From assembly GCA_018302225.1 (NCBI GenBank), contig JAGVZY010000007.1, forward strand, positions 13,700 to 77,699: a stretch of 64,000 bases of DNA, written 5' to 3'. The DNA is from Candidatus Woesearchaeota archaeon. GTDB taxonomy: Archaea > Nanobdellota > Nanobdellia > SCGC-AAA011-G17 > JAGVZY01. The notes under the pieces are model-generated. The model had not been told where the DNA came from and ran no database searches. It saw nothing but the letters and a program-made list of their open reading frames with translations. Position 1 is the first letter of the stretch, and every line of letters starts with the position of its first letter. A program made the translations under genes and the position numbers. This document shows, piece after piece, positions 3,491 through 49,495 of the stretch.

Positions 3491-4093
3491 ATGAAATTAG
3501 GCACAAAAATCTTAACTTATGTAGCTGCAGGTTGGTTATTACTAAATCCAAATAATTTCAATTCAGAAAATAAGCCACAACAATTATCTGATTTAGAACA
3601 AAAAGTAGAAGAAATAGTTAAAAAACAAGAGCGTGTAATAGTAATTGATAAATCTGATTTTTTACTTTATTATTATAATAATGGAAAAGTTGAAGACAAA
3701 TATACTGTTGCAATAGGGAAAAATACTTCTGGAAAAAATAAATCAAAAATAGGAGATAATCTAACTCCTGAAGGCATATTTAAAATCCAAGAAAAATCAA
3801 AAATAGATGAAAATTATTTAGGCAAATATAAAACAGATTTAATAAGGGAATTAGAATATTCATTATTTAACATAATAAGAAGTCCATTTGGAACAAGGTG
3901 GATGCGTTTAAAATCTCAAAGTTATAAGGGATTTAAAACCCCTGATTGGAAAGGTATTGGGATACACGGGTTAAGACATAGTCCAAAGATATTTAAATAT
4001 CAAACAGAAGGATGTGTTGGACTTAACGTCAAAGATGCTCAAAAGTTATACAATAAAGTTGATATTGGTGATTATGTTATAATTAAACCTTAA
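3491..4093 (+). CDS. exported L,D-transpeptidase (YkuD) catalytic-domain protein
   Basis: N-terminal hydrophobic signal/anchor. C-terminal GIHG...(17 aa)...TEGCVGL matches the L,D-transpeptidase His/Cys active-site signature. Confidence 0.7.
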   Translation: MKLGTKILTYVAAGWLLLNPNNFNSENKPQQLSDLEQKVEEIVKKQERVIVIDKSDFLLYYYNNGKVEDKYTVAIGKNTSGKNKSKIGDNLTPEGIFKIQEKSKIDENYLGKYKTDLIRELEYSLFNIIRSPFGTRWMRLKSQSYKGFKTPDWKGIGIHGLRHSPKIFKYQTEGCVGLNVKDAQKLYNKVDIGDYVIIKP

Positions 4094-14286: not shown

Positions 14287-14358
14287 GGCGGTGATAGTTC
14301 ATTGGTAGAATGCGGGCCTGTGGAGCCTGGGAGCCGAGTTCGATTCTCGGTCACCGCC
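14287..14358 (+). tRNA. tRNA-His (anticodon GTG) with genomically encoded G-1 pairing C73 (8-bp acceptor stem)
   Basis: Manual fold: G-1 + GCGGTGA/TCACCGC acceptor, U8A9, D stem GTTC/GAAT, anticodon stem CGGGC/GCCTG with loop CTGTGGA, T arm CCGAG-TTCGATT-CTCGG, discriminator C. No encoded CCA. Confidence 0.8.
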
Positions 14359-14366
14359 CTAAAAAT

Positions 14367-15608
14367 ATGATACAAAAACAAAAAGGAACAAGAGATTTTT
14401 ATCCAGAAGAAAAACGTACTCAAAACTATATTTTTGAAATCTGGAAATCAGTTGCAGAATCTTTCGGTTATGAAGAAATAAATGGTCCAACAATGGAGCC
14501 AATAGATTTGTACAAAAAATCCGGTTCTGAAATTCCTGAACAAATTTATACTTTAAAAGATAAATCAGATAATGAATTTGCTCTACGTCCAGAATTAACT
14601 CCAACTATAGCAAGAATGATTTCTCAAAAACAAGGAATTAAAAGACCCATAAAATGGTATGCAATTCCAGATTGTTACAGATACGAAGCACCTCAATCAG
14701 GAAGATTAAGACAATTTGCACAATTTAATTTAGATTTACTTGGAACAGAAACTACAACTTCTGATGCAGAAGTCATCACCGTTTTAGTTGAACTACTAAA
14801 AGCATTTGGATTTACAAAAAATGATGTGTTTGTAAGAATTTCAAATAGAAAGGTCATAGAATCATTCTTAGATTATCTAACAATTTCAAACAAAAAAGAA
14901 ATTGCAAAACTAATTGATAAATACGATAAATTATCTCCAGAAGGATTTCAAGAATCTCTTACAGAATTAATTGGATCTAAAAAAGCACAAGAAATAAGTT
15001 CATTCTTAAAAATAAGAAATATTTCAGATATTAAATTTGATTTTGATGAAAAAGGAAAACAAGGATTAAAGGAATTAAACGAACTATTTACAAAATTAAA
15101 AGCATTCGGAGTTTTAGAATATTGTAGACTTGATTTAAGTATTATGCGTGGATTTGATTATTACACAGGAACAATCTTTGAAGCTTATGATACTAATAAA
15201 AAATTCAGAGCCTTAGCAGGTGGTGGAAGATATGATAATTTAGTTGATTTCTTAGGCGGAGAACCCTGTCCAGGAATAGGATTTGGTATGGGTGATGTTA
15301 TCTTGGAACTATTATTACAATCTAAAAATAAACTTCCACAGTTAAAAAAAGAAATAAAATATTACATTGCGCCTGTTAATGATTTTGTGCTCAATACAGC
15401 AATAGAAATTGCTCAAAAACTAAGAAAATATAACAATGTTGAGCTCGAAGTTACTTCAAGAAAACTTTCTAAACAATTTGAATATGCTTCTGAAATAGGT
15501 GCAGAAAAGATAGTTATTGTTGGTGAAAAAGACTTAGAAAACAAACAAGTAACAATTAGAGATTTAGAAAATGGTAAAGAAGAAAAAGTAAATATAAAAA
15601 ATTTGTGA
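14367..15608 (+). CDS. hisS: histidyl-tRNA synthetase
   Basis: GTRDFYPEE motif, class II motifs 2 and 3 (FRALAGGGRYD), C-terminal anticodon-binding domain. Start moved to ATG 14367 because the ORF-track start at 14310 overlaps the tRNA. Confidence 0.9.
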   Translation: MIQKQKGTRDFYPEEKRTQNYIFEIWKSVAESFGYEEINGPTMEPIDLYKKSGSEIPEQIYTLKDKSDNEFALRPELTPTIARMISQKQGIKRPIKWYAIPDCYRYEAPQSGRLRQFAQFNLDLLGTETTTSDAEVITVLVELLKAFGFTKNDVFVRISNRKVIESFLDYLTISNKKEIAKLIDKYDKLSPEGFQESLTELIGSKKAQEISSFLKIRNISDIKFDFDEKGKQGLKELNELFTKLKAFGVLEYCRLDLSIMRGFDYYTGTIFEAYDTNKKFRALAGGGRYDNLVDFLGGEPCPGIGFGMGDVILELLLQSKNKLPQLKKEIKYYIAPVNDFVLNTAIEIAQKLRKYNNVELEVTSRKLSKQFEYASEIGAEKIVIVGEKDLENKQVTIRDLENGKEEKVNIKNL

Positions 15609-21371: not shown

Positions 21372-22331
21372 ATGGACAATATAGATAAAAAAATCCTTTT
21401 TGAATTAGATAAGAATGCTAGGAAGAGTATTAAGAAAATGGCTCATGAGCTTAAAATGAAAAGGAGTACATTAGCTTATAGAATCAAACAATTAGAAAAA
21501 AATAAGATTATTCAAAGTTATTACGCAGTTATAGATTATTCTAAATTAGGTTATAATATTTTAGTTAGGATTTATATCAAATTTCAAAATACTTCATTAG
21601 AAATAGAAAAAGAATTTATTGATTATGTTTTATCTCAGAATGAAACGTTTACTGTTTACAAGACAGAAGGAGATTGGGATCTTACGATTGGTTTTCTTGG
21701 AAAAAAATTAAGTGAATTTGATAGATTTTATAAAAAAATTAAAGAAAAATATAAAATTTATATTCACTCCCAAAATATTTCTCTTTTTAGGCAATATATT
21801 CAATATTATAGAAATTATTTAGTTGATAAAAAAGTGAGAGACTATTCTTCTTTGATTACAGGAGAAGGAGAATTAGTAAAAGTTGATGAAATTGACCTTA
21901 AACTCTTAAATCTTATATCCGAAAATGCAAGAATTTCCCTATTAGATTTGTCTAAACAACTTAAAATGACTTCTATGACAACAAGATATCGATTAAAAGG
22001 ATTAGAGAAAGAAAGGATTTTAATAGGGTATAGAGTTTTGTTAAATCTTTCAAAATTAGACTATGAATATTATAAAATTGATTTAGAAATAGAGGATATC
22101 AAAAAGATTAAATTACTCCAACAATTCGCAAAACAGCATCCAAGTATTATCTATGAAGATAGAACTGTGGGAGGATCTGATTTTGAGTTTGATGCTGAGT
22201 TACAAGGATATGATGCGTTTTATTCACTAATTGAAGAATTAAAAAAGGAATTTCCTGGGTTAATAAAAACTTATAGGTATTATAAAGCAAAAAAGATTTT
22301 CAAATATTCTTTTTTTCCTAAATTTAATTGA
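21372..22331 (+). CDS. tandem-duplicated (fused) Lrp/AsnC-family transcription regulator
   Basis: Two HTH_AsnC-like segments (DKKILFELDKNARKSIKKMAHELKM...; DLKLLNLISENARISLLDLSKQLKM...), each followed by a RAM-like domain. Confidence 0.6.
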   Translation: MDNIDKKILFELDKNARKSIKKMAHELKMKRSTLAYRIKQLEKNKIIQSYYAVIDYSKLGYNILVRIYIKFQNTSLEIEKEFIDYVLSQNETFTVYKTEGDWDLTIGFLGKKLSEFDRFYKKIKEKYKIYIHSQNISLFRQYIQYYRNYLVDKKVRDYSSLITGEGELVKVDEIDLKLLNLISENARISLLDLSKQLKMTSMTTRYRLKGLEKERILIGYRVLLNLSKLDYEYYKIDLEIEDIKKIKLLQQFAKQHPSIIYEDRTVGGSDFEFDAELQGYDAFYSLIEELKKEFPGLIKTYRYYKAKKIFKYSFFPKFN

Positions 22332-22435: not shown

Positions 22436-23131
22436 ATGAATCAAAAATTAAAATTAGATGATGATGTAAGACCCATTTTAGTGAGGATGGAAGATAGTAT
22501 AATTCTTGATTTATTTGAAAGGGCACAATTCAAAACTAATGATATTGCTTATACTATTGGTGGATTAGAAATTCCTGAATTTAAGGTAAGCTTTTTTGAA
22601 TATCTTTTCAGAGGTATAGAAGAAGTACATGCAAAAGCTGGAAGATATGAACATCCCGAAGAACATTCTTTTTTCGATAAAATGCCTAAACCCATTGTTA
22701 AAAGAAAGAAAGTAGTTTCACCCATTAAAATCTTTGACATAAATGTAAATGAAAAAATAAAGGAAATATATTTAGAAGCATTAAAAAGTATTTGTATTCC
22801 AGGGGATGATGACCATTATGGTTCTAGTATTGTTTTAGATATTAAAACATTACAAGACCTATCAAGAAGAGTTCACTATGGCAATTATGTAGCTGAAGCT
22901 AAATTCCAAGAAGATCCAGAAGGATATTCTGAGTTAATTAAAGCGAGAAACACAGAAGGTATTATGGAAAGATTAACTAATTTAAATGTTGAAAGAGACC
23001 TTCTCGAAAGAGTGAGAACTAAAGGTAAAAGATATAATGTTAATCCAGTTTTAATAGAATCTTTTTTTAAAGATAAAATAATTCCCTTAACTAAAGAAGT
23101 AGAAATTGAATATTTTTATAAATTAGAATAA
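22436..23131 (+). CDS. hypothetical protein (weak chorismate-mutase-like N-terminal helix)
   Basis: 231-aa ORF; only a weak R..L.R.ED.I..L.ER pattern. Confidence 0.3.
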   Translation: MNQKLKLDDDVRPILVRMEDSIILDLFERAQFKTNDIAYTIGGLEIPEFKVSFFEYLFRGIEEVHAKAGRYEHPEEHSFFDKMPKPIVKRKKVVSPIKIFDINVNEKIKEIYLEALKSICIPGDDDHYGSSIVLDIKTLQDLSRRVHYGNYVAEAKFQEDPEGYSELIKARNTEGIMERLTNLNVERDLLERVRTKGKRYNVNPVLIESFFKDKIIPLTKEVEIEYFYKLE

Positions 23132-23133
23132 AA

Positions 23134-23874
23134 TTAAATTAATTCTTCTGGCGTTATTATTTTAGTAGCTAAACATAAAATATTTTTATAGCTTTTTTCA
23201 TTTACAAAAATTGGAATAAAATCTTTTTCTGCAAAATATTCTTTATTTCCTTTTGCAATAAGATCTCCTTTTTTTACTTCTTTAAAATTAATCATAAAAG
23301 GATTAGCATTATCTTCACCATAAATAATATCTATAACCTGGTAAATAATTAAAGGCTCCCTATTAGAAGAATGCTCTTCATTGATATTATTTAACGCCCC
23401 CATAACCTCATCAACAATTTCTTTTTTTTCATGAGGTCCAACTTCTAAACTTATCCCACAAGAGACATGATCAATCAATGCTTTACCGCTTGCAAGATTT
23501 GAGGGCATAATCACTAATTTACTTAACCCCAATTTTTGTACTAAATTTATTTTTTCTTTACTAAATTGAGTAATAATTCCAAATAAGTCTGTATCACCAG
23601 AAGAAGAATGAATATCTATAATATATTTAAAGTCTTTTAGTTTTTCTAAAAGAAAAAAAGCTCTTTTTTCTTCTTCATCTCCAAAAGGATTACCGGGAAA
23701 AACCCTATTTAAATCAGAATCGATAGATCTTGTTTTATGTTCAATTGCTTTTGGATTTCCAATAAAAATAGGAATCTCTTTTGAAATCTTATCTATTACT
23801 TCTAATCCAAAGAGCTCGTCTCCATGCAAACACACTACGACCGCATAATCTTTCATTATATCATCCCAATACAA
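23134..23874 (-). CDS. succinylglutamate desuccinylase / aspartoacylase (AstE/AspA) family zinc hydrolase
   Basis: HGDE...G, DLNRVFPG and the second His/Glu region typical of the family. Confidence 0.6.
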   Translation of the reverse strand: MYWDDIMKDYAVVVCLHGDELFGLEVIDKISKEIPIFIGNPKAIEHKTRSIDSDLNRVFPGNPFGDEEEKRAFFLLEKLKDFKYIIDIHSSSGDTDLFGIITQFSKEKINLVQKLGLSKLVIMPSNLASGKALIDHVSCGISLEVGPHEKKEIVDEVMGALNNINEEHSSNREPLIIYQVIDIIYGEDNANPFMINFKEVKKGDLIAKGNKEYFAEKDFIPIFVNEKSYKNILCLATKIITPEELI

Positions 23875-24557
23875 ACAATAGAATCACCTGCAAGATAGTC
23901 TAATTTAAGTATTTTATTAAATAATTTACTTGATTTAGAATGGAAGGGTATATTATTAGCATAAAGAGACTTTCCGTAAGCTCCCCTTACAACCCCCAAT
24001 TCATCAATATTTGCATTAATTTCTTTTGCAAAATTATTTCTTATATTATATAATTTATTAGAAATTTTACAATCTTCCCCATTTTTACTTGAACATATAA
24101 TCTCACAATCTAAACTAGGACAAATAGTAGAACATATTTTTTCTAATGCTCTATGCATTCTTGGATTTTGAGTTTTTAAACCTAAAAATTTTTCTTCCCC
24201 TCTTTTAACTTGGTTTGTTAAATTTCTAAAAACATCATGTCCTTGCATATCTGGATGAAAAGCTACGCCTTCTACATAAAGTAAGGGTTCGCTAATTATT
24301 TTTTTATGCGTATAAAAACCAACTCCTCCAACTTTTTGACCTAAAAATAAAATATAGGTTTCATCAGGACAAATAAAATGAGTTTTAATATCCTCTTCAG
24401 TCATTTCACTTCCAAAAGCAGCTCTTACAACATAAATCACCTCTTGAAAAACCTGAGGATTTTTATTAATAAATGAAATAGGTTTGATAATTTTCTCTAA
24501 TACTCCCCCACAAATTTCTGCAACTTTCAATTTTTCATCCTTAATTGGTAGACTCAT
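23856..24557 (-). CDS. hypothetical protein, possibly acyl-CoA N-acyltransferase-like
   Basis: ORF track gives 23856-24680. Start trimmed to Met42 (MSLPIKDEK) to avoid an 83-nt overlap with the upstream gene. No strong motif. Confidence 0.35.
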   Translation of the reverse strand: MSLPIKDEKLKVAEICGGVLEKIIKPISFINKNPQVFQEVIYVVRAAFGSEMTEEDIKTHFICPDETYILFLGQKVGGVGFYTHKKIISEPLLYVEGVAFHPDMQGHDVFRNLTNQVKRGEEKFLGLKTQNPRMHRALEKICSTICPSLDCEIICSSKNGEDCKISNKLYNIRNNFAKEINANIDELGVVRGAYGKSLYANNIPFHSKSSKLFNKILKLDYLAGDSIVCIGMI

Positions 24558-24597: not shown

Positions 24598-25194
24598 TTA
24601 TGCAGGGGATATAAGAATGTGATTTTTTTGGGTGATTTTTTTAGGAATTTCTTGCCAATAACATTTTCTTTTATTCTCAATTATATACCTTTGCCTAACC
24701 AAATCAAAATAATCCGCTTTTTCTTTATAAAGCATTAATCTTGAATCGGGAGGATTCTGAAGATGATATTTAAGGTTTTGATTTTTATGACAACAAGGCA
24801 TAATTGCAAAAGAGATTTCATTTTCTAAACCTATTTCAATAATTTTATCCCCTAATTCAGAACAAGGATGAATAGCTACTATAAAACTTTTTTCGGTAGA
24901 AAGATCCAATTTTTCATAAATACTTTTTTCAATATATTCAATTTCATATTTATCAAATAGTTTTTGCAATTTATGAAATCTTAACGGAATTTTTTTATCC
25001 ACCATCAAACTCTGCTTAACTAATCCGTTATACAAAAAACCTAAACTACATAATCCACTCCCTGCACACAAATCAATAAGAAGATTATAATTTAAAAAAA
25101 AAGGATTAATAGCAGAAATAAAATAAGTAACCTTTTGTAGCTCTTGATTCTTAAAACCTAAATCGAGAAGTTCTCGGGTAGGCAAAGAAATCAT
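24598..25194 (-). CDS. class I SAM-dependent methyltransferase
   Basis: Motif I LIDLCAGSGLCSLGF; small Rossmann-fold size. Confidence 0.5.
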   Translation of the reverse strand: MISLPTRELLDLGFKNQELQKVTYFISAINPFFLNYNLLIDLCAGSGLCSLGFLYNGLVKQSLMVDKKIPLRFHKLQKLFDKYEIEYIEKSIYEKLDLSTEKSFIVAIHPCSELGDKIIEIGLENEISFAIMPCCHKNQNLKYHLQNPPDSRLMLYKEKADYFDLVRQRYIIENKRKCYWQEIPKKITQKNHILISPA

Positions 25195-26252
25195 TTTTTA
25201 GTATAGTCAAAAAGCATATGGGATTTTACTTTACTTAATGTAACAGCTGCAACTTCTCTTGCCTTAACACTACCTTCTTCCAAAATATCTAAAATTTCAT
25301 TATCTTTATTTTCATAAAAAGTTCTTTTATCTTTATATTCTTCAAATCTTTCTGCTAAAGCTTTTGAAGCCATTTTTTTACAATCTCCACACCCCATATT
25401 AGCAGTACGACATTTCTGAGAAATATTTAAGTATTCATCATTTTTTAAATTAAATGCGAAATGCAAATCATAAACAGTACACTTTTCAGGATCTCCCGGG
25501 ATTATTAAAGATTGTCGAGTAAGGTCTATTTTCATCTTTTTAACGCCAGCCATAATAGTTTCTAAATCATCAGTAGGTAAAATTACATTTCCAAAACTTT
25601 TGCTCATTTTTCTTCCATCTGTACCCAAAATTCGTGGAGATTGAGTTAAACTATAATTAGGAATTGTAAAAACCTCCCCATAAAGATTGTTAAATCTTCT
25701 AGCTAATTCTTTAGTTAATTCTATGTGAGGAATTTGATCTCCTCCCACAGGAACTAAAGTAGTATTATATAATAAAATATCTGCAGCTTGAAGAATAGGA
25801 TATGCTAAAAATCCGAGAGAAATTTGACCTTTGGCCATTGCAATTTCTGCTATATCAAATTCCAATTTTTCTTCCTCTCCTTCTTCATAATTTTTTTGTA
25901 AAATAGTTGCAACATATCCTTTAAAGGTAGGAACCCTTTCAGCTCTTCCTAAATTAACTAACCTTTCAAGAATTAAACTTAATTCTGCATGTTGAGGCAC
26001 TTTTGATTGAATAAATAAAACGCTCTTTTTTGGATCAACCCCTGCGGCCAACCAATCCTTAACCATTTCAATAGTATCCTCTCTAATATCTTTTGTATCT
26101 GTTTGGGTAGTTATAGCGTGCCAATCAGCAACAAAATAAAAAGTTTTGTTTCCCCCATTTTGCATTTTAACCCAATTATCTAAAGCTCCAACAACATGAC
26201 CAATATGCAATCTTCCTGTTGGCCTCATCCCGCTTAAAATTCTTTCAACCAT
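25191..26252 (-). CDS. trpS: tryptophanyl-tRNA synthetase, bacterial type, with C-terminal C-x22-C-x6-C-x2-C motif
   Basis: SGMRPTGRLHIGH (HIGH), GGDQ, KMSKS motifs; 353 aa bacterial-type architecture. Cys258/281/288/291 spacing counted directly. Confidence 0.9.
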   Translation of the reverse strand: MVERILSGMRPTGRLHIGHVVGALDNWVKMQNGGNKTFYFVADWHAITTQTDTKDIREDTIEMVKDWLAAGVDPKKSVLFIQSKVPQHAELSLILERLVNLGRAERVPTFKGYVATILQKNYEEGEEEKLEFDIAEIAMAKGQISLGFLAYPILQAADILLYNTTLVPVGGDQIPHIELTKELARRFNNLYGEVFTIPNYSLTQSPRILGTDGRKMSKSFGNVILPTDDLETIMAGVKKMKIDLTRQSLIIPGDPEKCTVYDLHFAFNLKNDEYLNISQKCRTANMGCGDCKKMASKALAERFEEYKDKRTFYENKDNEILDILEEGSVKAREVAAVTLSKVKSHMLFDYTKK

Positions 26253-26333
26253 TTAATATTAAGAATTATAAAGATTTAAAAAACTTTCCTATATTCAATA
26301 TTTTAAACATTTAAAAGAGCCAACTGATTTATT

Positions 26334-27710: not shown

Positions 27711-27842
27711 CCCATCCTAGCTCAATGGTAGAGCACTCGGCTGTAGCTTTAGAGCGCAGGCAAAGTTAATGTCCAAAAGACTAACAATGAAGACCTGACA
27801 GCCGATACCGAGTGGTTCCTGGTTCGAGTCCGGGGGATGGGA
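27711..27842 (+). tRNA. tRNA-Tyr (anticodon GTA) with 60-nt intron (27747-27806) at the canonical 37/38 position; C1:G72 base pair
   Basis: Manual fold: acceptor CCCATCC/GGATGGG, D arm GCTC-AATGGTA-GAGC, anticodon stem CTCGG/CCGAG interrupted by 60 nt after CTGTAG, T arm CCTGG-TTCGAGT-CCGGG, discriminator A. Confidence 0.75.
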
Positions 27843-40461: not shown

Positions 40462-41584
40462 AATGGTAAACAAAATATTAACTGGTGCAGAAACCAGTGC
40501 AGAAGCAATGCGTCAAATAGCCCCAGATGTAGTTTCAGCCTATCCTATCACTCCTCAAACCCATATAATTGAAAAATTCTCAGAATTTATTGCAGATGGT
40601 TTAATAGACACAGAATTGATTAGAGTAGAATCAGAACATAGTGCCCTAAGTGCTTGTGTTGGTGCTTCAGCAACAGGTGCAAGAACAATGACTGCAAGCT
40701 CATCAGCAGGCTTAGCCTTAATGTTTGAAATATTAGGAGTTACCTCGGGATTAAGACTTCCAGTAATTATGAACATTACAAATAGAGCATTATCTTCACC
40801 AATAAATATTCATTGTGATCATTCAGATTCTATGAATTGCAGAGATTCTGGTTGGATTCAAATATATTCTGAAAACTGTCAAGAAGTTTATGATTTCAAT
40901 TTAATAGCAGTAAAACTTGCAGAGTCGATAAATCTTCCAGTAATGATCATGCAAGATGGTTTTATTGTTTCTCATGGTGTGGAAAATTTATGCATTCTAG
41001 AAGACAAAAAAGCAAAATTATTTATAGGAAATTATAAACCAAAGTTTTCTTTACTTGAATTTAAAAAACCGAAAACCTTTGGTGCCTTACAACTAACAGA
41101 CTATAATTTTGAAACAAAAATTCAAATTTCGCAAGCAATGGAAAAAGCAAAACAAAAATATTTAGAAATTTCAAAAGCATATTCAAAAATCTCAGGAAGA
41201 AATTATAATTTCTTTGAATATTATGGAAATAAAAATACAAAAGATGTAATTGTGGCTTTATCTTCAACAGCAGGAACAATAAAAAGTATGATTGATGAAG
41301 GTTTAAATCTTGCCCTATTAAAAATTAACTTATTTAGACCATTCCCCCATGAAGAAATAAAAAATATTCTAAAAGATAAAAAAAGAATTATAATCTTAGA
41401 TCGTTCAGAAAGCTATGGTTCTTATCCACCCCTATATTCAGAAATCAAATCTGCACTTTATGATCTAAAAGAAAAACCTGAATTAATAAGTCATGTATTT
41501 GGAATTGGTGGAAGAGAAATTTACAAACAAGATATAAAAAATATTTTAAATAATTCAAAAAAATATATAGGTGTAAGAGAATGA
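40454..41584 (+). CDS. porA: POR alpha subunit
   Basis: Full-length match to POR alpha pattern; overlapping starts/stops with neighbours. Confidence 0.85.
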   Translation: MNKMVNKILTGAETSAEAMRQIAPDVVSAYPITPQTHIIEKFSEFIADGLIDTELIRVESEHSALSACVGASATGARTMTASSSAGLALMFEILGVTSGLRLPVIMNITNRALSSPINIHCDHSDSMNCRDSGWIQIYSENCQEVYDFNLIAVKLAESINLPVMIMQDGFIVSHGVENLCILEDKKAKLFIGNYKPKFSLLEFKKPKTFGALQLTDYNFETKIQISQAMEKAKQKYLEISKAYSKISGRNYNFFEYYGNKNTKDVIVALSSTAGTIKSMIDEGLNLALLKINLFRPFPHEEIKNILKDKKRIIILDRSESYGSYPPLYSEIKSALYDLKEKPELISHVFGIGGREIYKQDIKNILNNSKKYIGVRE

Positions 41585-43623
41585 AAGATTTAACAATAAA
41601 AGAACTGGCTCAAAAGGATACTCAGTTTATATCAGGGCATAGAGCTTGTGCGGGGTGTGCATTCCCAATTATCGTGAAAACTATTCTCGCATCAACAGAT
41701 AAAAAAGTAGTTGTCTGTGCTGCAACAGGTTGTTTAGAAGTTGTCTCAACAATTTACCCTTATTCTTCATGGAAAGTTCCATTTATTCACAGTGCATTTG
41801 AAAATGCAGGTGCAACAATTTCAGGTGTAGAAACTGCATTTAAAGCATTAAAGAAAAAGGATCCAAAATTAAAAAAAGAAGACGTTAAATTCATTGCCTT
41901 TGCTGGAGACGGTGGATCTTACGACATTGGACTTCAGTCTTTATCAGGAACATTAGAACGTGGGCATGATATAGTATTTGTAGTTTATGACAATGAAGCT
42001 TATATGAATTGTCTAAGCTTAGATAGCCTAATTATGACTAAAGAAGGGTTAAAAAAAGTAATGGATGTTAAAGTTGGAGAATTGATCTATGCTTTTGATG
42101 AAAATGCTCATAAACTGATTACTAAAAAATGTATAGGTAAATTTAATAATGGTATTAAAAAAGTGTATGAACTTAACACATTTCATCATTCAATAAAAAC
42201 AACAGATAATCACCCTTTTCTAATATTAAAACGAAATGGGCGAGGTAAAAAAGCTCAATTTATTTGGAAGAAATTAAAAGATTTAAAAGTAGGCAATGAA
42301 ATTATAACTTTAAAGAAAATAAATAATGAAAAAAGTTTCAGTTTTGATAAAATAAAAATATCTAAAAAAGGAGATTACAAAGTAAATAAAATAAATGAGA
42401 TAAATTTACCAAAAATAAGTTCTACAAATTTAATGGAATTTTTAGGATTATATATGGGCGATGGATGGATAAGAGAATCTAAGGCAGAAGTAGGTTTTGC
42501 ACTACCCCGCAATAAAAAAGGGCGCGAGAGGTTAATAACTCTCTATAAAAAAATATTTAATATATCGCTTAAACCAAAAGATAAAAACTATGTTTATATT
42601 TATTCTTTAAATTTAGTAAGATTTATAGAATCTTTAAAATTTAATAAAGGTGCAAAAAATAAAATAGTGCCTGCTTGGATATTCACTCTGCCACTTAAAG
42701 AAAAAGAAGCTTTTATACAAGGATTAATGCTTTCAGATGGATATCAAATAAAAAATAGTAAAAGATATATATCTGCGAGCATCGATCTTTTAAAAACCTT
42801 AAGATTACTTCTGCAAACCTGCAATTATAGAGTAGGAAAAATACATTTACAAAAAAAATTAAAAGGAACGCATGTAGTTTATAGAAAATTGTTAAAAGAT
42901 TCTACTTATGGTTATATCTGTTTTAGTAAAAAAAAGAGGTTATTAATTGATAAATATATCTCTCAAACAAAACAAAAAGACTTTTTTGCAGGAAATAAAA
43001 ATTTTGGAACTGAAAAAATAATTTCTATTAAATTTATAAAAGAAGAATCAACAATTGATTTAAGTGTTGAAGGAGCACATAATTTTATAGCCGACGGAAT
43101 TGTAGTCCACAATACAGGGGTTCAAGGATCAAGTTCAACTCCTTTCGGTGCTACAACTACAACAACACCAGATGGAAAAATTCATCATGGTAAAGAACAA
43201 ATCAAAAAGAATTTAATGGAAATTGTAATCGCACATAAAATACCTTATGCTGCACAAGCAAGTGTCTTTGATTTGGAAGATCTTTCAAGAAAAGCAAAAA
43301 AAGCATTTGAAACAAAAGGCCCTAGTTTCTTAAATGTTTTATCACCCTGTAATTTAGGTTGGAAACATCCACCAAACATAACAATTACAATTGCAAAACT
43401 AGCAACAGAAACAAATTTCTGGCCATTATATGAATATGAAAATGGAAATTATATCTTAAATTATAAACCACAAATTCAAAAGAGTGTAAATTCTTATTTA
43501 AGACTTCAAGGTAGATTTAAGCACCTTTTTAAACCAGAAAATAACTTACTTCTTGAAAAACTGCAAAAATCAACTGATGAACAGTGGGAAAAACTGTTAA
43601 AAGTCTCTAAAAACCTTAAATAA
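41581..43623 (+). CDS. porB: POR beta subunit (TPP-binding) interrupted by a 368-aa intein
   Basis: CAGCAFP cluster-ligand motif, GDG-x25-N TPP motif; exteins sum to about 312 aa, typical PorB size. Confidence 0.85.
   Translation: MKDLTIKELAQKDTQFISGHRACAGCAFPIIVKTILASTDKKVVVCAATGCLEVVSTIYPYSSWKVPFIHSAFENAGATISGVETAFKALKKKDPKLKKEDVKFIAFAGDGGSYDIGLQSLSGTLERGHDIVFVVYDNEAYMNCLSLDSLIMTKEGLKKVMDVKVGELIYAFDENAHKLITKKCIGKFNNGIKKVYELNTFHHSIKTTDNHPFLILKRNGRGKKAQFIWKKLKDLKVGNEIITLKKINNEKSFSFDKIKISKKGDYKVNKINEINLPKISSTNLMEFLGLYMGDGWIRESKAEVGFALPRNKKGRERLITLYKKIFNISLKPKDKNYVYIYSLNLVRFIESLKFNKGAKNKIVPAWIFTLPLKEKEAFIQGLMLSDGYQIKNSKRYISASIDLLKTLRLLLQTCNYRVGKIHLQKKLKGTHVVYRKLLKDSTYGYICFSKKKRLLIDKYISQTKQKDFFAGNKNFGTEKIISIKFIKEESTIDLSVEGAHNFIADGIVVHNTGVQGSSSTPFGATTTTTPDGKIHHGKEQIKKNLMEIVIAHKIPYAAQASVFDLEDLSRKAKKAFETKGPSFLNVLSPCNLGWKHPPNITITIAKLATETNFWPLYEYENGNYILNYKPQIQKSVNSYLRLQGRFKHLFKPENNLLLEKLQKSTDEQWEKLLKVSKNLK
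42010..43113 (+). mobile_element. intein with LAGLIDADG homing endonuclease, inserted right after the conserved Asn of the PorB TPP motif (...YDNEAYMN|C...VVHN|TG...)
   Basis: N-terminal Cys, C-terminal His-Asn followed by Thr. Two LAGLIDADG motifs: LGLYMGDGWI and IQGLMLSDGYQI. Confidence 0.8.
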
Positions 43624-43674: not shown

Positions 43675-44256
43675 ATGGCATTAAAAGTTAAAATTGAAAT
43701 TTCAAATAGGCACATACATTTATCAGAAGAAGATTTAGATTCTTTATTTGGAAATAATTATAAACTAAAAATAAAAAGAAAACTATCTCAACAAAATGAT
43801 TTTGCAGCAGAAGAAACAGTTACTATTTCTAATTTATTAGATTCTGAAAAACAAATAAAAGAAATTAGAATTGTAGGTCCTGCAAGAGCCCAAACTCAAG
43901 TTGAAATTTTAAAATCTGATTTATCTAAATTAGGATTAAACGAAGTTCCATTAAGAATTTCTGGAGACATAACAGACACGCCAGGAATTTTTATTGATGG
44001 CCCAAAATCAGGAATTGCAATTGATGAAGGTTTAATAATCGCAAAACGCCATATTCATGTTTCTCCTGAAGATGCACAAAAACATCATTTAACTGAAGGT
44101 TCAAGAGTAAGCGCAAAAGTACTTAGCTCAGGAAGAATAATAGAACATTTAAATGTAAGAATAAAAAAAGGATTTACAACCGTAATTCATATAGATAAAG
44201 ATGAAGCATTAAAATTTGGTGTTGGAACTAACGAAGAAACAGAAATAATAAATTAA
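43675..44256 (+). CDS. PduL-type phosphate acyltransferase (phosphotransacetylase analogue)
   Basis: Two PduL repeats with SNRHIHLS and AKRHIHVS signatures, about 190 aa. Confidence 0.65.
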   Translation: MALKVKIEISNRHIHLSEEDLDSLFGNNYKLKIKRKLSQQNDFAAEETVTISNLLDSEKQIKEIRIVGPARAQTQVEILKSDLSKLGLNEVPLRISGDITDTPGIFIDGPKSGIAIDEGLIIAKRHIHVSPEDAQKHHLTEGSRVSAKVLSSGRIIEHLNVRIKKGFTTVIHIDKDEALKFGVGTNEETEIIN

Positions 44257-49123: not shown

Positions 49124-49495
49124 AAGTAGGCAAGACATCCAACTGACGGTTTGTCCGCAAGGATTTAAGCTGAGGAAAGTCCGCCCACCACAGGAAATCA
49201 AATGATTGTTACCAATTACTTGAAACTGAAGCAATACCACTCTAGTTTACTAGAGATCCTGAAAAGGATGGCAACAGCTCAGAAAAGACACGGCCTATTA
49301 GTTTGTGATGATGTTTGCGAATGGCTTAGTAATAAGCTCAGAGCTAACCAACTGAATTTGCTAATAGGATGCGATGAAACTGCTAGTCCCGGAATGGTGC
49401 AAGTCTTGTATTAGACGCTTAGTTAAATGTTGGAAAAGTTTGGCTTTAAGTTAAACTTACAGAAGGCGGCTTATCTCTTGCCTACAATTTTTTCT
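49124..49495 (+). ncRNA. rnpB: RNase P RNA (archaeal type A-like)
   Basis: CR-I GAGGAAAGTCCGCCC near the 5' end and CR-V ACAGAAGGCGGCTTA near the 3' end, with compensatory CCGC/GCGG covariation in P4. 5' AGGCAAGA pairs with 3' TCTTGCCT (P1); T-rich tail after 49495. Ends approximate (plus or minus 10 nt). Confidence 0.7.

What the first reader, a model, noticed from the sequence alone, without database searches (positions are those of the whole stretch)
25380..25481. Bacterial-type TrpRS carrying a C-x22-C-x6-C-x2-C motif (candidate [4Fe-4S] site) in an archaeon
The enzyme is bacterial-type: about 350 aa, SGMRPTGRLHIGH, GGDQ, KMSKS. The archaeal/eukaryotic type is longer. Its C-terminal anticodon-binding region has Cys258-x22-Cys281-x6-Cys288-x2-Cys291, counted directly. 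To my recollection this matches the iron-sulfur-binding motif described for Thermotoga maritima TrpRS. This suggests horizontal acquisition of an Fe-S-containing TrpRS.
Basis: partly seen in the sequence, partly recalled or inferred. Interest (0 to 1): 0.55.

Follow-up and report, generated by a model that had tools for sequence, protein, structure and literature searches.

The report
Bacterial iron-sulfur tryptophan-tRNA enzyme in archaeon
A tiny groundwater archaeon carries a bacterial-style enzyme for loading tryptophan onto tRNA, with the four cysteines known to hold an iron-sulfur cluster; it is a real member of a known enzyme type, always sits beside the same partner genes, and in related archaea lies next to the normal archaeal enzyme.

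Summary
ORF 25191-26252 (-) encodes a 353-aa TrpRS whose only four cysteines (C258, C281, C288, C291; 25380-25481) form C-x22-C-x6-C-x2-C. They align one-to-one with the [4Fe-4S] ligands of Thermotoga maritima TrpRS (PDB 2G36, the best structural match). The second-sphere Arg and His are also present.

The host is an archaeon: archaeal RNase P RNA, an intron-bearing tRNA, aEF-2 and a thermosome. NCBI already lists the protein as a Woesearchaeota tryptophan--tRNA ligase.

The protein is bacterial-type. It belongs to a 57-sequence DPANN clade in which all four Cys are invariant. That clade branches among Fe-S bacterial TrpRS near the Thermotoga group. GC content matches the host, so the transfer is old.

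- The gene heads a tight operon: trpS, a Methyltransf_32 methyltransferase, a divergent GNAT, and an AstE/AspA-like deacylase.
- The methyltransferase neighbour recurs in 11 of 12 archaeal neighbourhoods and in none of 80 bacterial ones.
- Three related contig families carry a canonical archaeal-type TrpRS directly beside the bacterial-type gene.

It is therefore probably a second TrpRS. Whether this genome has both is unresolved.

Verdict: a new member of a known kind, in an interesting and undescribed context.

The parts
25191..26252 (-). trpS: bacterial-type, T. maritima-like TrpRS, 353 aa
   Evidence: PF00579 scores 208 bits and TIGR00233 scores 283.9 bits against a cut-off of 176.75. The best PDB sequence match is 2g36_A at 309.6 bits. 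The AF2 model has pLDDT 91.7 and its best fold match is 2g36, TM 0.84/0.91. NCBI lists the near-identical protein as MBS3166822.1, tryptophan--tRNA ligase.
25380..25481 (-). C258-x22-C281-x6-C288-x2-C291, the candidate [4Fe-4S] ligands in the anticodon-binding domain
   Evidence: Codons verified. They align with T. maritima Cys236/259/266/269. All four are invariant in 57 of 57 archaeal-clade sequences.
25515..25517 (-). R246, equivalent to T. maritima R224, which contacts a cluster sulfide
   Evidence: Alignment; the role of R224 is described in PMC2954223 and PMC4027196. In the archaeal clade the position is 55 R and 2 K.
25461..25463 (-). H264, equivalent to T. maritima H242 of the R-FeS-H motif
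   Evidence: Alignment and PMC4027196. In the archaeal clade the position is 50 H and 7 Q.
26196..26207 (-). HIGH signature (residues 16-19), part of the ATP site
25734..25745 (-). GGDQ (GxDQ) motif, residues 170-173
25596..25610 (-). KMSKS signature, residues 215-219
25824..25904 (-). Clade-typical insertion (residues 117-143) between PTFKG and the specificity helix
   Evidence: The G112-G147 spacing is 24-40 residues in 53 of 57 archaeal sequences. It is 15 residues in 122 of 144 bacterial sequences. This segment is unaligned to 2g36 and has lower pLDDT, 75-88.
26253..26333 (-). 81-nt A/T-rich intergenic region upstream of trpS, with TATA-like TTTTTAAA / TTTATAA 15-33 nt before the ATG (putative promoter)
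   Evidence: Sequence read. The promoter assignment is an inference and was not tested.
24598..25194 (-). Methyltransf_32 (PF13679) SAM methyltransferase, 198 aa; its ATG overlaps the trpS stop codon (ATGA)
   Evidence: Pfam 27.6 bits; overlap shown. It is adjacent to the bacterial-type trpS in 11 of 12 archaeal neighbourhoods and in 0 of 80 bacterial loci. NCBI accession MBS3166821.1.
23856..24557 (-). Divergent GNAT-like acyltransferase, 233 aa (third gene of the operon)
   Evidence: Homologous ORFs occur in L101, L088, L084, L086 and L128. The GNAT matches are weak: Acetyltransf_1 in 3 of 5 members with best E 5.6e-5, and PDB 3pp9 at E 0.015.
23134..23856 (-). AstE/AspA-like (succinylglutamate desuccinylase/aspartoacylase family) deacylase, 240 aa; its start overlaps the GNAT stop codon
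   Evidence: PF24827 scores 50 bits and NCBIfam aspartoacylase 60.7 bits, below cut-off. It is 48-49% identical to the N-terminal domain of the AstE::archaeal-TrpRS fusion proteins P0139 and P0148. It is present in 7 of 12 archaeal neighbourhoods.
22436..23131 (+). Chorismate mutase of the plant/yeast type, convergent with the operon
   Evidence: TIGR01802 scores 213.5 bits against a cut-off of 170.9. The same AstE<-CM_2 arrangement occurs in L132.
21372..22331 (+). AsnC/Lrp-type regulator with two HTH domains, next to the chorismate mutase
   Evidence: HTH_24 and HTH_AsnC-type score 76-77 bits. A link to the operon is inferred from position only.

Best explanation
The gene encodes a working class Ic tryptophanyl-tRNA synthetase of the bacterial type, belonging to the Thermotoga maritima-like subgroup that holds a [4Fe-4S] cluster in its C-terminal anticodon-binding domain.

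Mechanism, inferred from the family. As a homodimer it activates Trp with ATP using HIGH, KMSKS, GxDQ and the AAD specificity helix, then transfers Trp to tRNA-Trp. C258, C281, C288 and C291 ligate the cubane. R246, the C288 region and main-chain atoms form the rigid pocket that reads C34 of the CCA anticodon.

Origin. The gene descends from one old bacteria-to-archaea transfer into DPANN archaea (Woesearchaeota, Pacearchaeota and Nanoarchaeota by NCBI labels) and has since been fully adapted to the host.

Context. In this genome it is the first gene of a tightly packed operon: trpS, a Methyltransf_32 methyltransferase, a GNAT-like acyltransferase and an AstE/AspA-like deacylase. These sit next to a chorismate mutase. 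The neighbourhood was assembled inside the archaea.

Role. Most probably it is a second, accessory TrpRS working alongside a canonical cluster-free archaeal-type TrpRS, as part of a tryptophan-handling gene module. It is probably not the only TrpRS of the cell.

What is shown and what is inferred. Shown: sequence, motif equivalence, fold, archaeal host, clade membership and conserved neighbourhood. Inferred: cluster binding, aminoacylation activity, accessory status in this particular genome, and the roles of the partner genes.
For: Motif and catalytic signatures are exact.

Family assignment:
- PF00579 and TIGR00233 score above their cut-offs.
- The best solved relative is the Fe-S enzyme 2g36 at 309.6 bits. 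All four ligands plus R224 and H242 align (residue roles from PMC2954223 and PMC4027196).
- The AF2 model has pLDDT 91.7 and its best PDB fold match is 2g36, TM 0.84/0.91, rmsd 2.2 A.

Archaeal host:
- RNaseP_arch scores 118 bits, and tRNA-Tyr carries a 60-nt intron.
- aEF-1alpha, aEF-2, Rpb7, RtcB, thermosome, proteasome and FttA are present.
- The same locus is 99.98-99.99% identical in three independent assemblies.
- NCBI labels the organism Candidatus Woesearchaeota archaeon.

Phylogeny:
- There is a 57-sequence archaeal clade with 72-74% NJ bootstrap. The next branches are P0099, P0068 and the T. maritima group.
- The clade joining P0001 and T. maritima excludes E. coli in 67% and T. thermophilus in 64% of replicates.
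- All four Cys are invariant in the clade.
- trpS GC is 31.7% against 29% for the window and about 32% for EF-2 and the thermosome.

Host Fe-S capacity: the POR delta subunit has two ferredoxin-type Cys motifs.

Operon: the trpS stop and the methyltransferase start overlap as ATGA, and the GNAT stop overlaps the AstE start.

Neighbourhood: Methyltransf_32 is adjacent in 11 of 12 archaeal neighbourhoods, AstE in 7, GNAT-like in 6 and a PLP decarboxylase in 6. None of these occurs in 80 bacterial loci covering 1.3 Mb.

Accessory status:
- A canonical archaeal-type TrpRS lies directly beside the bacterial-type gene in L081/L082/L130, L110+L128 and L132/L133.
- The archaeal-type enzyme has at least 120 database clusters at 69% identity or more, against 10 for the bacterial type. 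Yet the bacterial type is the more conserved of the two between the same pair of organisms, 59% against 44%.
- Han et al. noted that organisms with several TrpRS genes have the motif in only one copy. The DPANN archaeal-type copies lack it.
Against: - There is no biochemical evidence. AlphaFold places no cofactor and model coordinates could not be inspected, so cluster binding rests on homology alone.
- No archaeal-type TrpRS and no tRNA-Trp lie in the 64-kb window. 'Second copy' is therefore extrapolated from relatives whose core proteins are only 37-58% identical.
- The only tRNA-Trp seen next to these genes (L081:7066-7136) has the archaeal identity set G1-C72/A73. Bacterial TrpRS normally pairs with G73 tRNA-Trp (PMC5370408).
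- The tree is a neighbour-joining tree with one distant outgroup, and support for nesting is moderate (64-74%).
- Nothing shows what the partner genes do. The methyltransferase fold search returned only generic class I methyltransferases.
Confidence: 0.78

Rival explanations
1. In this particular organism the bacterial-type Fe-S enzyme is the only TrpRS. It has displaced the archaeal-type enzyme. The relatives that carry both genes side by side represent the intermediate stage of that replacement.
For: - No archaeal-type TrpRS lies within 64 kb.
- At the position where L110 and L132 have the archaeal-type gene directly upstream of the bacterial-type gene, the window has pilin-like ORFs and tRNA-Tyr.
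- The bacterial-type gene keeps every catalytic and anticodon-domain feature.
- It is more conserved than the archaeal-type copy between the same organisms, 59% against 44%.
Against: - Three related contig families keep both genes.
- The archaeal-type enzyme is far more widespread in the lineage.
- 64 kb is a small part of the genome.
- The tRNA-Trp known in a relative carries A73, which suits the archaeal enzyme.
Confidence: 0.3
2. The four cysteines bind a structural Zn2+ or form disulfides, not a [4Fe-4S] cluster. The motif is then only a stabilising knuckle.
For: Four-Cys sites can bind Zn, and no metal analysis exists for any archaeal member. Some bacterial relatives have replaced the fourth Cys with D, R or N, so the site tolerates change.
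Against: - Spacing and alignment are identical to a site that crystallography, X-ray fluorescence and mass spectrometry showed to hold [4Fe-4S] (PMC2954223).
- The cluster-contacting Arg and the His of the R-FeS-H motif are conserved.
- C-x22 between the first two ligands is typical of the cubane site.
- The host encodes other 4Fe-4S proteins.
Confidence: 0.08
3. The enzyme is not primarily a translation enzyme. One version: it feeds Trp-tRNA or Trp-AMP to the linked GNAT-like transferase, methyltransferase, deacylase and, in relatives, PLP decarboxylase, to make or recycle a tryptophan-derived compound. Another version: it is an inhibitor-resistant spare copy.
For: - The linkage to a methyltransferase, GNAT, AstE/AspA deacylase, PLP decarboxylase and trp or chorismate genes is conserved and archaea-specific.
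- It coexists with a normal TrpRS in relatives.
- Dedicated or resistant second aaRS copies are a known theme (review PMC9437257).
Against: - No accessory gene other than the methyltransferase is present in more than 7 of 12 neighbourhoods.
- The anticodon-binding domain and every tRNA-charging signature are under strong conservation.
- The AstE domain is also fused to the ordinary archaeal-type TrpRS. That suggests a link to Trp supply for charging in general, not to a special product.
- No substrate could be assigned to any partner.
Confidence: 0.12
4. The gene is bacterial DNA wrongly joined or binned into an archaeal assembly.
For: The protein's nearest solved relatives are all bacterial.
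Against: - The gene lies in the middle of a 64-kb window with archaeal genes on both sides.
- The junctions are reproduced at 99.98% identity or more in three independent assemblies.
- GC content matches the host.
- Twelve archaeal neighbourhoods show the same clade of genes.
Confidence: 0.01

Closest known systems
Thermotoga maritima TrpRS TM0492 (PDB 2G36), the [4Fe-4S]-containing bacterial TrpRS (Han et al. 2010, PMC2954223)
   Same: - Bacterial-type class Ic fold.
- The same C-x22-C-x6-C-x2-C motif in the anticodon-binding domain, with all four ligands aligned.
- The same Arg and His second-sphere residues.
- 44% identity over the structural alignment, TM 0.84/0.91.
   Different: - The host is a DPANN archaeon, not a thermophilic bacterium.
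- It carries a 27-residue segment (residues 117-143) before the specificity helix that does not align to 2g36, where the archaeal clade is 9-25 residues longer than typical bacterial sequences.
- It heads an archaea-specific operon with a methyltransferase, a GNAT and an AstE/AspA deacylase.
- The tRNA-Trp seen next to these genes in one related contig (L081) has A73, whereas bacterial tRNA-Trp normally has G73.
- Cluster binding has not been tested.
Aeropyrum pernix TrpRS (PDB 3A04), an archaeal-type TrpRS with a cubane cluster (discussed in Stiebritz 2014, PMC4027196)
   Same: It is an archaeal organism whose TrpRS carries an Fe-S cluster at the anticodon-binding domain, with the C-x6-C-x2-C core.
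   Different: It belongs to the other TrpRS lineage: only 74.6 bits to the window protein, against 309.6 for 2g36. The archaeal-type TrpRS copies of the DPANN relatives lack the Cys motif altogether.
Organisms with two TrpRS genes: Deinococcus radiodurans TrpRS II, Streptomyces indolmycin-resistant TrpRS (review PMC9437257), and CPR bacteria with an extra archaeal-type TrpRS-A plus tRNA-Trp(A73) (Mukai et al. 2017, PMC5370408)
   Same: Two evolutionarily distinct TrpRS genes coexist in one genome, sometimes adjacent and linked to tryptophan-related genes. Only one copy carries the Fe-S motif. The CPR case is the mirror image of this cross-domain transfer.
   Different: Here the foreign copy is bacterial and the host archaeal. 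The partner genes (Methyltransf_32, GNAT-like, AstE/AspA, PLP decarboxylase) differ from ORF1 of the TrpRS-A system. No second tRNA-Trp has been seen. Coexistence is shown for relatives, not for this genome.

Membership tests
Class Ic aminoacyl-tRNA synthetase, TrpRS (PF00579 / TIGR00233) | HIGH, KMSKS and GxDQ signature motifs, and the AAD specificity helix | tested here: met
   HIGH at residues 16-19, GGDQ at 170-173, KMSKS at 215-219 and AAD at 156-158.
Class Ic aminoacyl-tRNA synthetase, TrpRS (PF00579 / TIGR00233) | Profile score above the curated cut-off | tested here: met
   PF00579 scores 208.4 bits against 21.1. TIGR00233 scores 283.9 bits against 176.75. TyrRS models score only 42-46 bits.
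Class Ic aminoacyl-tRNA synthetase, TrpRS (PF00579 / TIGR00233) | Trp-dependent ATP-PPi exchange and charging of tRNA-Trp | not testable with these tools
   This needs recombinant enzyme and tRNA.
Bacterial-type TrpRS, as opposed to the archaeal/eukaryotic type | Closer in sequence and fold to bacterial TrpRS than to archaeal TrpRS | tested here: met
   - Bacterial PDB chains score 145-310 bits. A. pernix scores 74.6 and P. horikoshii 51.7.
- It is 25% identical to a DPANN archaeal-type TrpRS.
- All top fold matches are bacterial or mitochondrial.
- TIGR00233 does not discriminate between the types: the archaeal-type L081 protein also passes it.
Archaeal/eukaryotic-type TrpRS (NCBIfam PRK12285.x) | Score at or above the family cut-off | tested here: not met
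   The best PRK12285 model scores 133.1 bits against a cut-off of 451. The others score 55-92 bits against cut-offs of 320-891.
[4Fe-4S] TrpRS of the T. maritima kind (Han et al. 2010) | C-x(21-24)-C-x6-C-x2-C in the anticodon-binding domain | tested here: met
   C258-x22-C281-x6-C288-x2-C291. These are the only Cys in the protein.
[4Fe-4S] TrpRS of the T. maritima kind (Han et al. 2010) | The four Cys occupy the same alignment columns as Cys236, Cys259, Cys266 and Cys269 of TmTrpRS | tested here: met
   HMMER alignment to 2g36_A, whose chain numbering is offset by +12. All four are invariant in 57 of 57 archaeal-clade sequences and 137-144 of 146 bacterial relatives.
[4Fe-4S] TrpRS of the T. 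maritima kind (Han et al. 2010) | Second-sphere R224 and H242 (the R-FeS-H motif of Stiebritz 2014) | tested here: met
   R246 and H264 align with them. In the clade R is 55/57 and H is 50/57.
[4Fe-4S] TrpRS of the T. maritima kind (Han et al. 2010) | Overall fold matches 2G36 | tested here: met
   The AF2 model has pLDDT 91.7. 2g36 ranks first with E 2.8e-28, TM 0.84/0.91 and rmsd 2.2 A. Cys-Cys distances could not be measured because coordinates are not exposed.
[4Fe-4S] TrpRS of the T. maritima kind (Han et al. 2010) | A cluster is actually bound (Fe and S content, UV-vis, EPR or a crystal structure) | not testable with these tools
   This needs anaerobically purified protein.
Horizontally transferred gene, bacteria to archaea | Host DNA is archaeal on both sides of the gene | tested here: met
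   Searches show archaeal genes on both sides. The locus is reproduced in three independent assemblies.
Horizontally transferred gene, bacteria to archaea | The archaeal sequences form a clade nested inside bacterial diversity | tested here: met
   The archaeal clade of 57 has 72-74% bootstrap. It nests with the T. maritima group to the exclusion of E. coli and T. thermophilus in 64-67% of NJ replicates. Support is moderate and no maximum-likelihood tree could be run.
Horizontally transferred gene, bacteria to archaea | Compositional anomaly, the signature of a recent transfer | tested here: not met
   trpS GC is 31.7%. The window is 29% and EF-2 and the thermosome are about 32%. This fits an old, ameliorated transfer.
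Auxiliary (second) aaRS copy | Another TrpRS gene in the same genome | tested here: inconclusive
   None lies in the 64-kb window. An archaeal-type copy is present and adjacent in L081/L082/L130, L110+L128 and L132/L133. The rest of this genome could not be searched.
Auxiliary (second) aaRS copy | Distinct expression condition, inhibitor resistance or substrate | not testable with these tools
   This needs expression data or enzymology.

The most novel reading that the evidence does not exclude
The bacterial-type Fe-S TrpRS may be the core of a DPANN-specific tryptophan module: trpS with a Methyltransf_32 methyltransferase, variably joined by a GNAT-like acyltransferase, an AstE/AspA deacylase, a PLP decarboxylase and trp or chorismate genes. 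This module would work beside the ordinary archaeal TrpRS.

Three versions of this reading are not excluded:
- The methyltransferase modifies tRNA-Trp so that the cluster-bearing anticodon pocket accepts it. That would give a natural second TrpRS/tRNA channel that crosses the A73/G73 domain barrier.
- The enzyme is an iron- or redox-sensitive alternative to the cluster-free archaeal enzyme.
- Trp-tRNA or Trp is passed to the acyltransferase, decarboxylase and methyltransferase to make an N-acyl or methylated tryptophan-derived compound.

The AstE::TrpRS fusion proteins would then mark a direct physical coupling of a deacylase to tryptophan charging.
Probability: 0.2. Interest if true: 0.7.

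Novelty: new member of a known kind. Interest (0 to 1): 0.38.

Why it matters
The Fe-S cluster of TrpRS is one of the few direct contacts between an iron-sulfur cofactor and the reading of the genetic code, and its purpose is still unknown.

This finding adds a well-sampled archaeal clade of 57 sequence clusters in which the four ligands never vary. In several members a cluster-free archaeal TrpRS sits next door, and the only tRNA-Trp seen next to these genes, in one related contig (L081), carries the archaeal A73 identity. Nature has thus set up a comparison: same cell, same amino acid, with and without the cluster, across the bacterial/archaeal tRNA-identity divide.

That makes two open questions directly testable:
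- What is the cluster for?
- How does a bacterial TrpRS cope with an archaeal tRNA-Trp?

The strictly conserved methyltransferase partner and the deacylase-TrpRS fusions point to unstudied proteins that act with TrpRS in genome-reduced, probably tryptophan-limited symbionts.

Tried and rejected
- **Genome-contig scan.** It returned only bacterial loci at 39-46% identity. These were useful as tree taxa and as the neighbourhood control, but gave no archaeal genomes.
- **Finding an archaeal-type TrpRS from the window's own organism.** P0229 looked promising because it has many contigs from the same study series. Its contigs are 42-43% GC against 29-30% for the window and share no DNA with it, so it is a different organism. 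Matching contig lengths between the two hit lists linked only L081. NCBI accessions were not available for the archaeal-type hits.
- **Methyltransferase substrate.** The AF2 model has pLDDT 84. The PDB fold search gave only generic class I methyltransferases; the top hit was TrmK at TM 0.53, with small-molecule O-methyltransferases close behind. NCBIfam gave nothing. No assignment was made.
- **PLP decarboxylases of related loci.** All NCBIfam matches are far below cut-off, so the substrate is unknown.
- **tRNA next to trpS.** It is tRNA-Tyr(GUA) with a 60-nt intron, not tRNA-Trp.
- **ARAGORN drawing of the L081 tRNA-Trp.** ARAGORN drew an 8-bp acceptor stem with U73. The Rfam tRNA model gives the canonical 7-bp stem with G1-C72 and A73, and the latter was adopted.
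- **Metagenome DNA-pattern scan for PR[IV]LGTDGRKM.** It returned 30 stretches, about two-thirds bacterial. It still yielded the L110/L128 locus.
- **Cys-Cys distances.** They could not be measured because model coordinates are not exposed.
- **Literature searches.** No paper was found that describes bacterial-type Fe-S TrpRS in DPANN archaea or its operon.
Full report
**1. The observation**

The ORF at 25191..26252 on the minus strand encodes a 353-aa protein. It has exactly four cysteines:
- C258, codon 25479-25481
- C281, codon 25410-25412
- C288, codon 25389-25391
- C291, codon 25380-25382

SGMRPTGRLHIGH (26196-26234), GGDQ (25734-25745) and KMSKS (25596-25610) are all present.

**2. What the protein is**

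- Pfam PF00579 scores 208 bits and NCBIfam TIGR00233 scores 283.9 bits against a cut-off of 176.75.
- The archaeal-type models PRK12285.x reach at most 133 bits against cut-offs of 320-891.
- Among solved structures the best sequence match is 2g36_A, the T. maritima TrpRS, at 309.6 bits. Other bacterial TrpRS score 145-197 bits. The archaeal enzymes of A. pernix (3a04) and P. horikoshii (3jxe) score 74.6 and 51.7 bits.
- In the printed alignment the four Cys fall on chain residues 248, 271, 278 and 281 of 2g36. These are native Cys236, Cys259, Cys266 and Cys269, the cluster ligands described by Han et al. (PMC2954223).
- R246 and H264 align with R224 and H242. R224 contacts a cluster sulfide, and R224 and H242 form the 'R-FeS-H' motif that Stiebritz proposed for reading C34 of the anticodon (PMC4027196).
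- An AlphaFold2 model built on 41 clade members has mean pLDDT 91.7. Its best PDB fold match is 2g36, with TM 0.84/0.91 and rmsd 2.2 A.

**3. The host**

The window is 29% GC. Its archaeal features include:
- an archaeal RNase P RNA at 49129-49482, 118 bits;
- a tRNA-Tyr(GUA) with a 60-nt intron at 27711-27842;
- aEF-1alpha, aEF-2, S7, Rpb7, RtcB, thermosome, proteasome, FttA and a POR operon.

The trpS locus is reproduced at 99.98-99.99% identity in three independent ENA assemblies. This rules out a chimeric join.

NCBI holds the near-identical protein as MBS3166822.1, 'tryptophan--tRNA ligase [Candidatus Woesearchaeota archaeon]', on a 135-kb contig. It sits next to MBS3166821.1. The gene is thus already deposited and correctly named, though without comment on its type or cluster.

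**4. Relatives and phylogeny**

A search of 5.8 billion proteins gave the following:
- ten clusters at 69-100% identity;
- about 45 at 46-58%, several labelled Pacearchaeota, Nanoarchaeota or Woesearchaeota;
- then bacterial sequences (Terriglobia, Rokubacteria, Schekmanbacteria and others) at 44-49%.

I built a neighbour-joining tree of 204 sequences. It comprised 120 database hits, 80 named bacterial genomes, E. coli, T. maritima, T. thermophilus and a DPANN archaeal-type TrpRS as root.
- It recovers an archaeal clade of 57 sequences with 72-74% bootstrap.
- The nearest outside branches are P0099 and P0068, followed by the T. maritima group.
- The clade joining the window protein and T. maritima excludes E. 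coli in 67% and T. thermophilus in 64% of 200 replicates.

Gene context confirmed an archaeal host for every clade member I looked up.

All four Cys are invariant in 57 of 57 sequences. R246 is R in 55 and H264 is H in 50. trpS has host-like GC, 31.7%.

The best reading is a single old transfer from a bacterium carrying the Fe-S type into a DPANN ancestor. Support for nesting is moderate because only a distance tree could be run.

**5. Literature**

- Han et al. already stated that homologues with the motif occur in 'proteobacterial and archaeal groups'. They also noted that in organisms with several TrpRS genes only one copy has the motif.
- Stiebritz noted that the archaeal-type A. pernix enzyme also binds a cubane.
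- Mukai et al. described the mirror case: CPR bacteria with an extra archaeal-type TrpRS-A and tRNA-Trp(A73). They also mention the motif in 'some bacterial and archaeal TrpRS'.

I found no paper describing bacterial-type Fe-S TrpRS in DPANN archaea or its gene context.

**6. Gene context in the window**

trpS is the first of four tightly packed genes on the minus strand.
- The trpS stop overlaps the start of a 198-aa Methyltransf_32 (PF13679) methyltransferase as ATGA (24598-25194).
- After a 40-nt spacer comes a 233-aa ORF (23856-24557). Pfam misses it, but it belongs to a small family that matches GNAT acetyltransferases weakly.
- Its stop overlaps the start of a 240-aa AstE/AspA-like deacylase (23134-23856).
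- Convergent with these genes lies a plant/yeast-type chorismate mutase (TIGR01802, 213.5 bits against 170.9), followed by an AsnC-type regulator.

**7. Gene context in relatives**

Across 12 distinct archaeal neighbourhoods of clade members:

| Feature | Neighbourhoods (of 12) |
|---|---|
| Methyltransferase adjacent | 11 |
| AstE/AspA gene | 7 |
| GNAT-like gene | 6 |
| Divergent 505-552-aa PLP decarboxylase (PF00282) | 6 |
| trpE/G or trpB/A genes | 3 |
| Chorismate mutase | 2 |

With the same HMMs, 80 bacterial loci covering 1.3 Mb around Fe-S-type trpS genes gave no hit to any of these families. The neighbourhood was therefore built within the archaea after the transfer.

Two database proteins, P0139 and P0148, are fusions. 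Their N-terminal AstE/AspA domain is 48-49% identical to the window's ORF. Their C-terminal part is an archaeal-type TrpRS. This ties that deacylase family to TrpRS function in general.

**8. One TrpRS or two**

Three related contig families carry a canonical archaeal-type TrpRS directly beside the bacterial-type gene.
- L081/L082/L130: the archaeal-type gene is 1.7 kb upstream and divergent, with a tRNA-Trp next to it.
- L110+L128 and L132/L133: it is immediately upstream and co-directional.

These are shown. The archaeal-type copies have no Cys motif.

The archaeal-type enzyme of L081 has at least 120 database clusters at 69% identity or more, against ten for the bacterial type. Yet between the same two organisms the bacterial-type copy is the better conserved, 59% against 44%. 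The bacterial type is therefore the rarer, accessory gene.

The tRNA-Trp in L081 (7066-7136, minus strand) has G1-C72 and A73, the archaeal identity set. Bacterial systems use G73.

The window itself has neither an archaeal-type TrpRS nor a tRNA-Trp. Its organism is distant from L081, with core proteins 37-58% identical. I could not search the rest of its genome. I rate 'second copy' as more likely than 'sole enzyme after displacement', roughly 55-60% against 30%.

**9. Mechanism**

Shown:
- a complete TrpRS catalytic core;
- a complete T. maritima-type cluster site;
- the fold;
- strict conservation of the ligands over a deep archaeal clade;
- a host that makes other 4Fe-4S proteins (POR delta subunit with two ferredoxin motifs).

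Inferred:
- the enzyme binds a [4Fe-4S] cluster;
- it charges tRNA-Trp;
- it uses the cluster-Arg pocket to read C34.

Open:
- why a cluster-bearing bacterial enzyme is kept beside a cluster-free archaeal one;
- how it deals with A73;
- what the methyltransferase does. One PF13679 protein, PA14_68100, has been reported as a tRNA 2'-O-methyltransferase (bioRxiv 10.1101/2024.07.01.601603). However, the fold search here was non-specific.

A clade-typical insertion before the specificity helix (residues 117-143) is a candidate for adaptation to the archaeal tRNA. The same site carries larger inserts in Aquificae, so this is only a lead.

**10. Verdict**

As stated, it is a new member of a known kind (Fe-S TrpRS, known since 2010) and is already correctly named in GenBank.

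The added value lies in the context: an archaea-specific operon, a strictly conserved methyltransferase partner, deacylase-TrpRS fusions, and side-by-side bacterial-type and archaeal-type TrpRS genes in relatives.

Interest is 0.38. The most novel reading not excluded is a dedicated DPANN tryptophan module or a second TrpRS/tRNA channel. I give it a probability of about 0.2 and an interest of 0.7 if true.

Noticed in passing
window 24598-25194 (-): A Methyltransf_32 (PF13679) methyltransferase is translationally coupled to trpS through an ATGA overlap. It is adjacent to the bacterial-type trpS in 11 of 12 archaeal neighbourhoods and never in 80 bacterial loci. Invariant D-x-C-x-G-x-G, HPC and CCH motifs are present. 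The substrate is unknown.
   Followed up: partly
window 23134-23856 (-); proteins P0139 and P0148: The AstE/AspA-like deacylase in the trpS operon is 48-49% identical to the N-terminal domain of two predicted fusion proteins (about 596 aa). The C-terminal part of those fusions is an archaeal-type TrpRS. This is a Rosetta-stone link between this deacylase family and TrpRS.
   Followed up: partly
window 23856-24557 (-): A 233-aa ORF with no Pfam hit at default thresholds belongs to a small family (TQNP and YG..L motifs) found beside the bacterial-type trpS in six archaeal neighbourhoods. It matches GNAT acetyltransferases weakly.
   Followed up: partly
window 22436-23131 (+): A chorismate mutase of the plant/yeast type (TIGR01802, 213.5 bits against a cut-off of 170.9) occurs in a DPANN archaeon, convergent with the trpS operon. 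The same arrangement occurs in L132. No other aromatic-pathway gene lies in the window.
   Followed up: no
L081:7066-7136 (-) and L081:7208-8269 (-); L110:576-1706; L132:8848-9936: Related DPANN contigs carry a canonical, Cys-motif-free archaeal-type TrpRS right next to the bacterial-type Fe-S TrpRS. In L081 there is also a tRNA-Trp(CCA) with G1-C72 and A73.
   Followed up: yes
L081:8306-9913, L083:2163-3701, L086:11038-12600, L087:11116-12633, L089:11083-12741, L101:3200-4723: A divergent 505-552-aa PLP-dependent group II decarboxylase (PF00282) lies beside the bacterial-type trpS in six archaeal neighbourhoods: directly adjacent in five, about 6 kb upstream in L083. All NCBIfam matches are far below cut-off. 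No homologue is in the window.
   Followed up: partly
L083:6705-13718; L084:13361-15600; L088:13314-15518: Tryptophan-biosynthesis genes (trpE, trpG, and in L083 trpB and trpA) flank the bacterial-type trpS in three DPANN contigs. This is unexpected for organisms usually regarded as amino-acid auxotrophs.
   Followed up: no
window 25824-25904 (-): The archaeal clade has a 9-25-aa insertion between PTFKG and the specificity helix, relative to most bacterial Fe-S TrpRS. Aquificae, WOR-3 and P0099 have 79-90-aa inserts at the same site.
   Followed up: partly
L037, L043, L047, L048, L051, L053, L056 (bacterial loci): Seven bacterial relatives did not match the four-Cys pattern. In six the fourth Cys is replaced by D, R or N; in L056 a longer first spacer, not loss of a Cys, caused the miss. 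The six are either three-Cys clusters or have lost the cluster.
   Followed up: no
window 27711-27842 (+): tRNA-Tyr(GUA) has a 60-nt intron at the canonical 37/38 position. Default ARAGORN settings miss it; Rfam finds it.
   Followed up: yes
window 14288-14359 (+) and 14310-15608 (+): tRNA-His(GUG) lies immediately upstream of, and overlaps the longest ORF of, the HisRS gene. This cognate tRNA/synthetase adjacency resembles the tRNA-Trp and archaeal TrpRS pair in L081.
   Followed up: no
window 41581-43623 (+); also L081:18609-20153: An intein with a LAGLIDADG homing-endonuclease domain interrupts the TPP-binding (beta) subunit of pyruvate:ferredoxin oxidoreductase. A related contig has an intein in a NifU-like Fe-S scaffold protein.
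   Followed up: no
window 3491-4093 (+): A YkuD-type L,D-transpeptidase domain protein (PF03734, 83.6 bits) occurs in an archaeon. This enzyme family normally acts on bacterial peptidoglycan.
   Followed up: no
window 43675-44256 (+): A PduL-type phosphotransacylase (PF06130, 188.6 bits) lies directly after the POR operon. This suggests acetyl-CoA to acetyl-phosphate conversion by a bacterial-style enzyme.
   Followed up: no
window 49129-49482 (+): Archaeal RNase P RNA (RF00373, 118 bits, full length). It is useful as a domain marker for the contig.
   Followed up: yes
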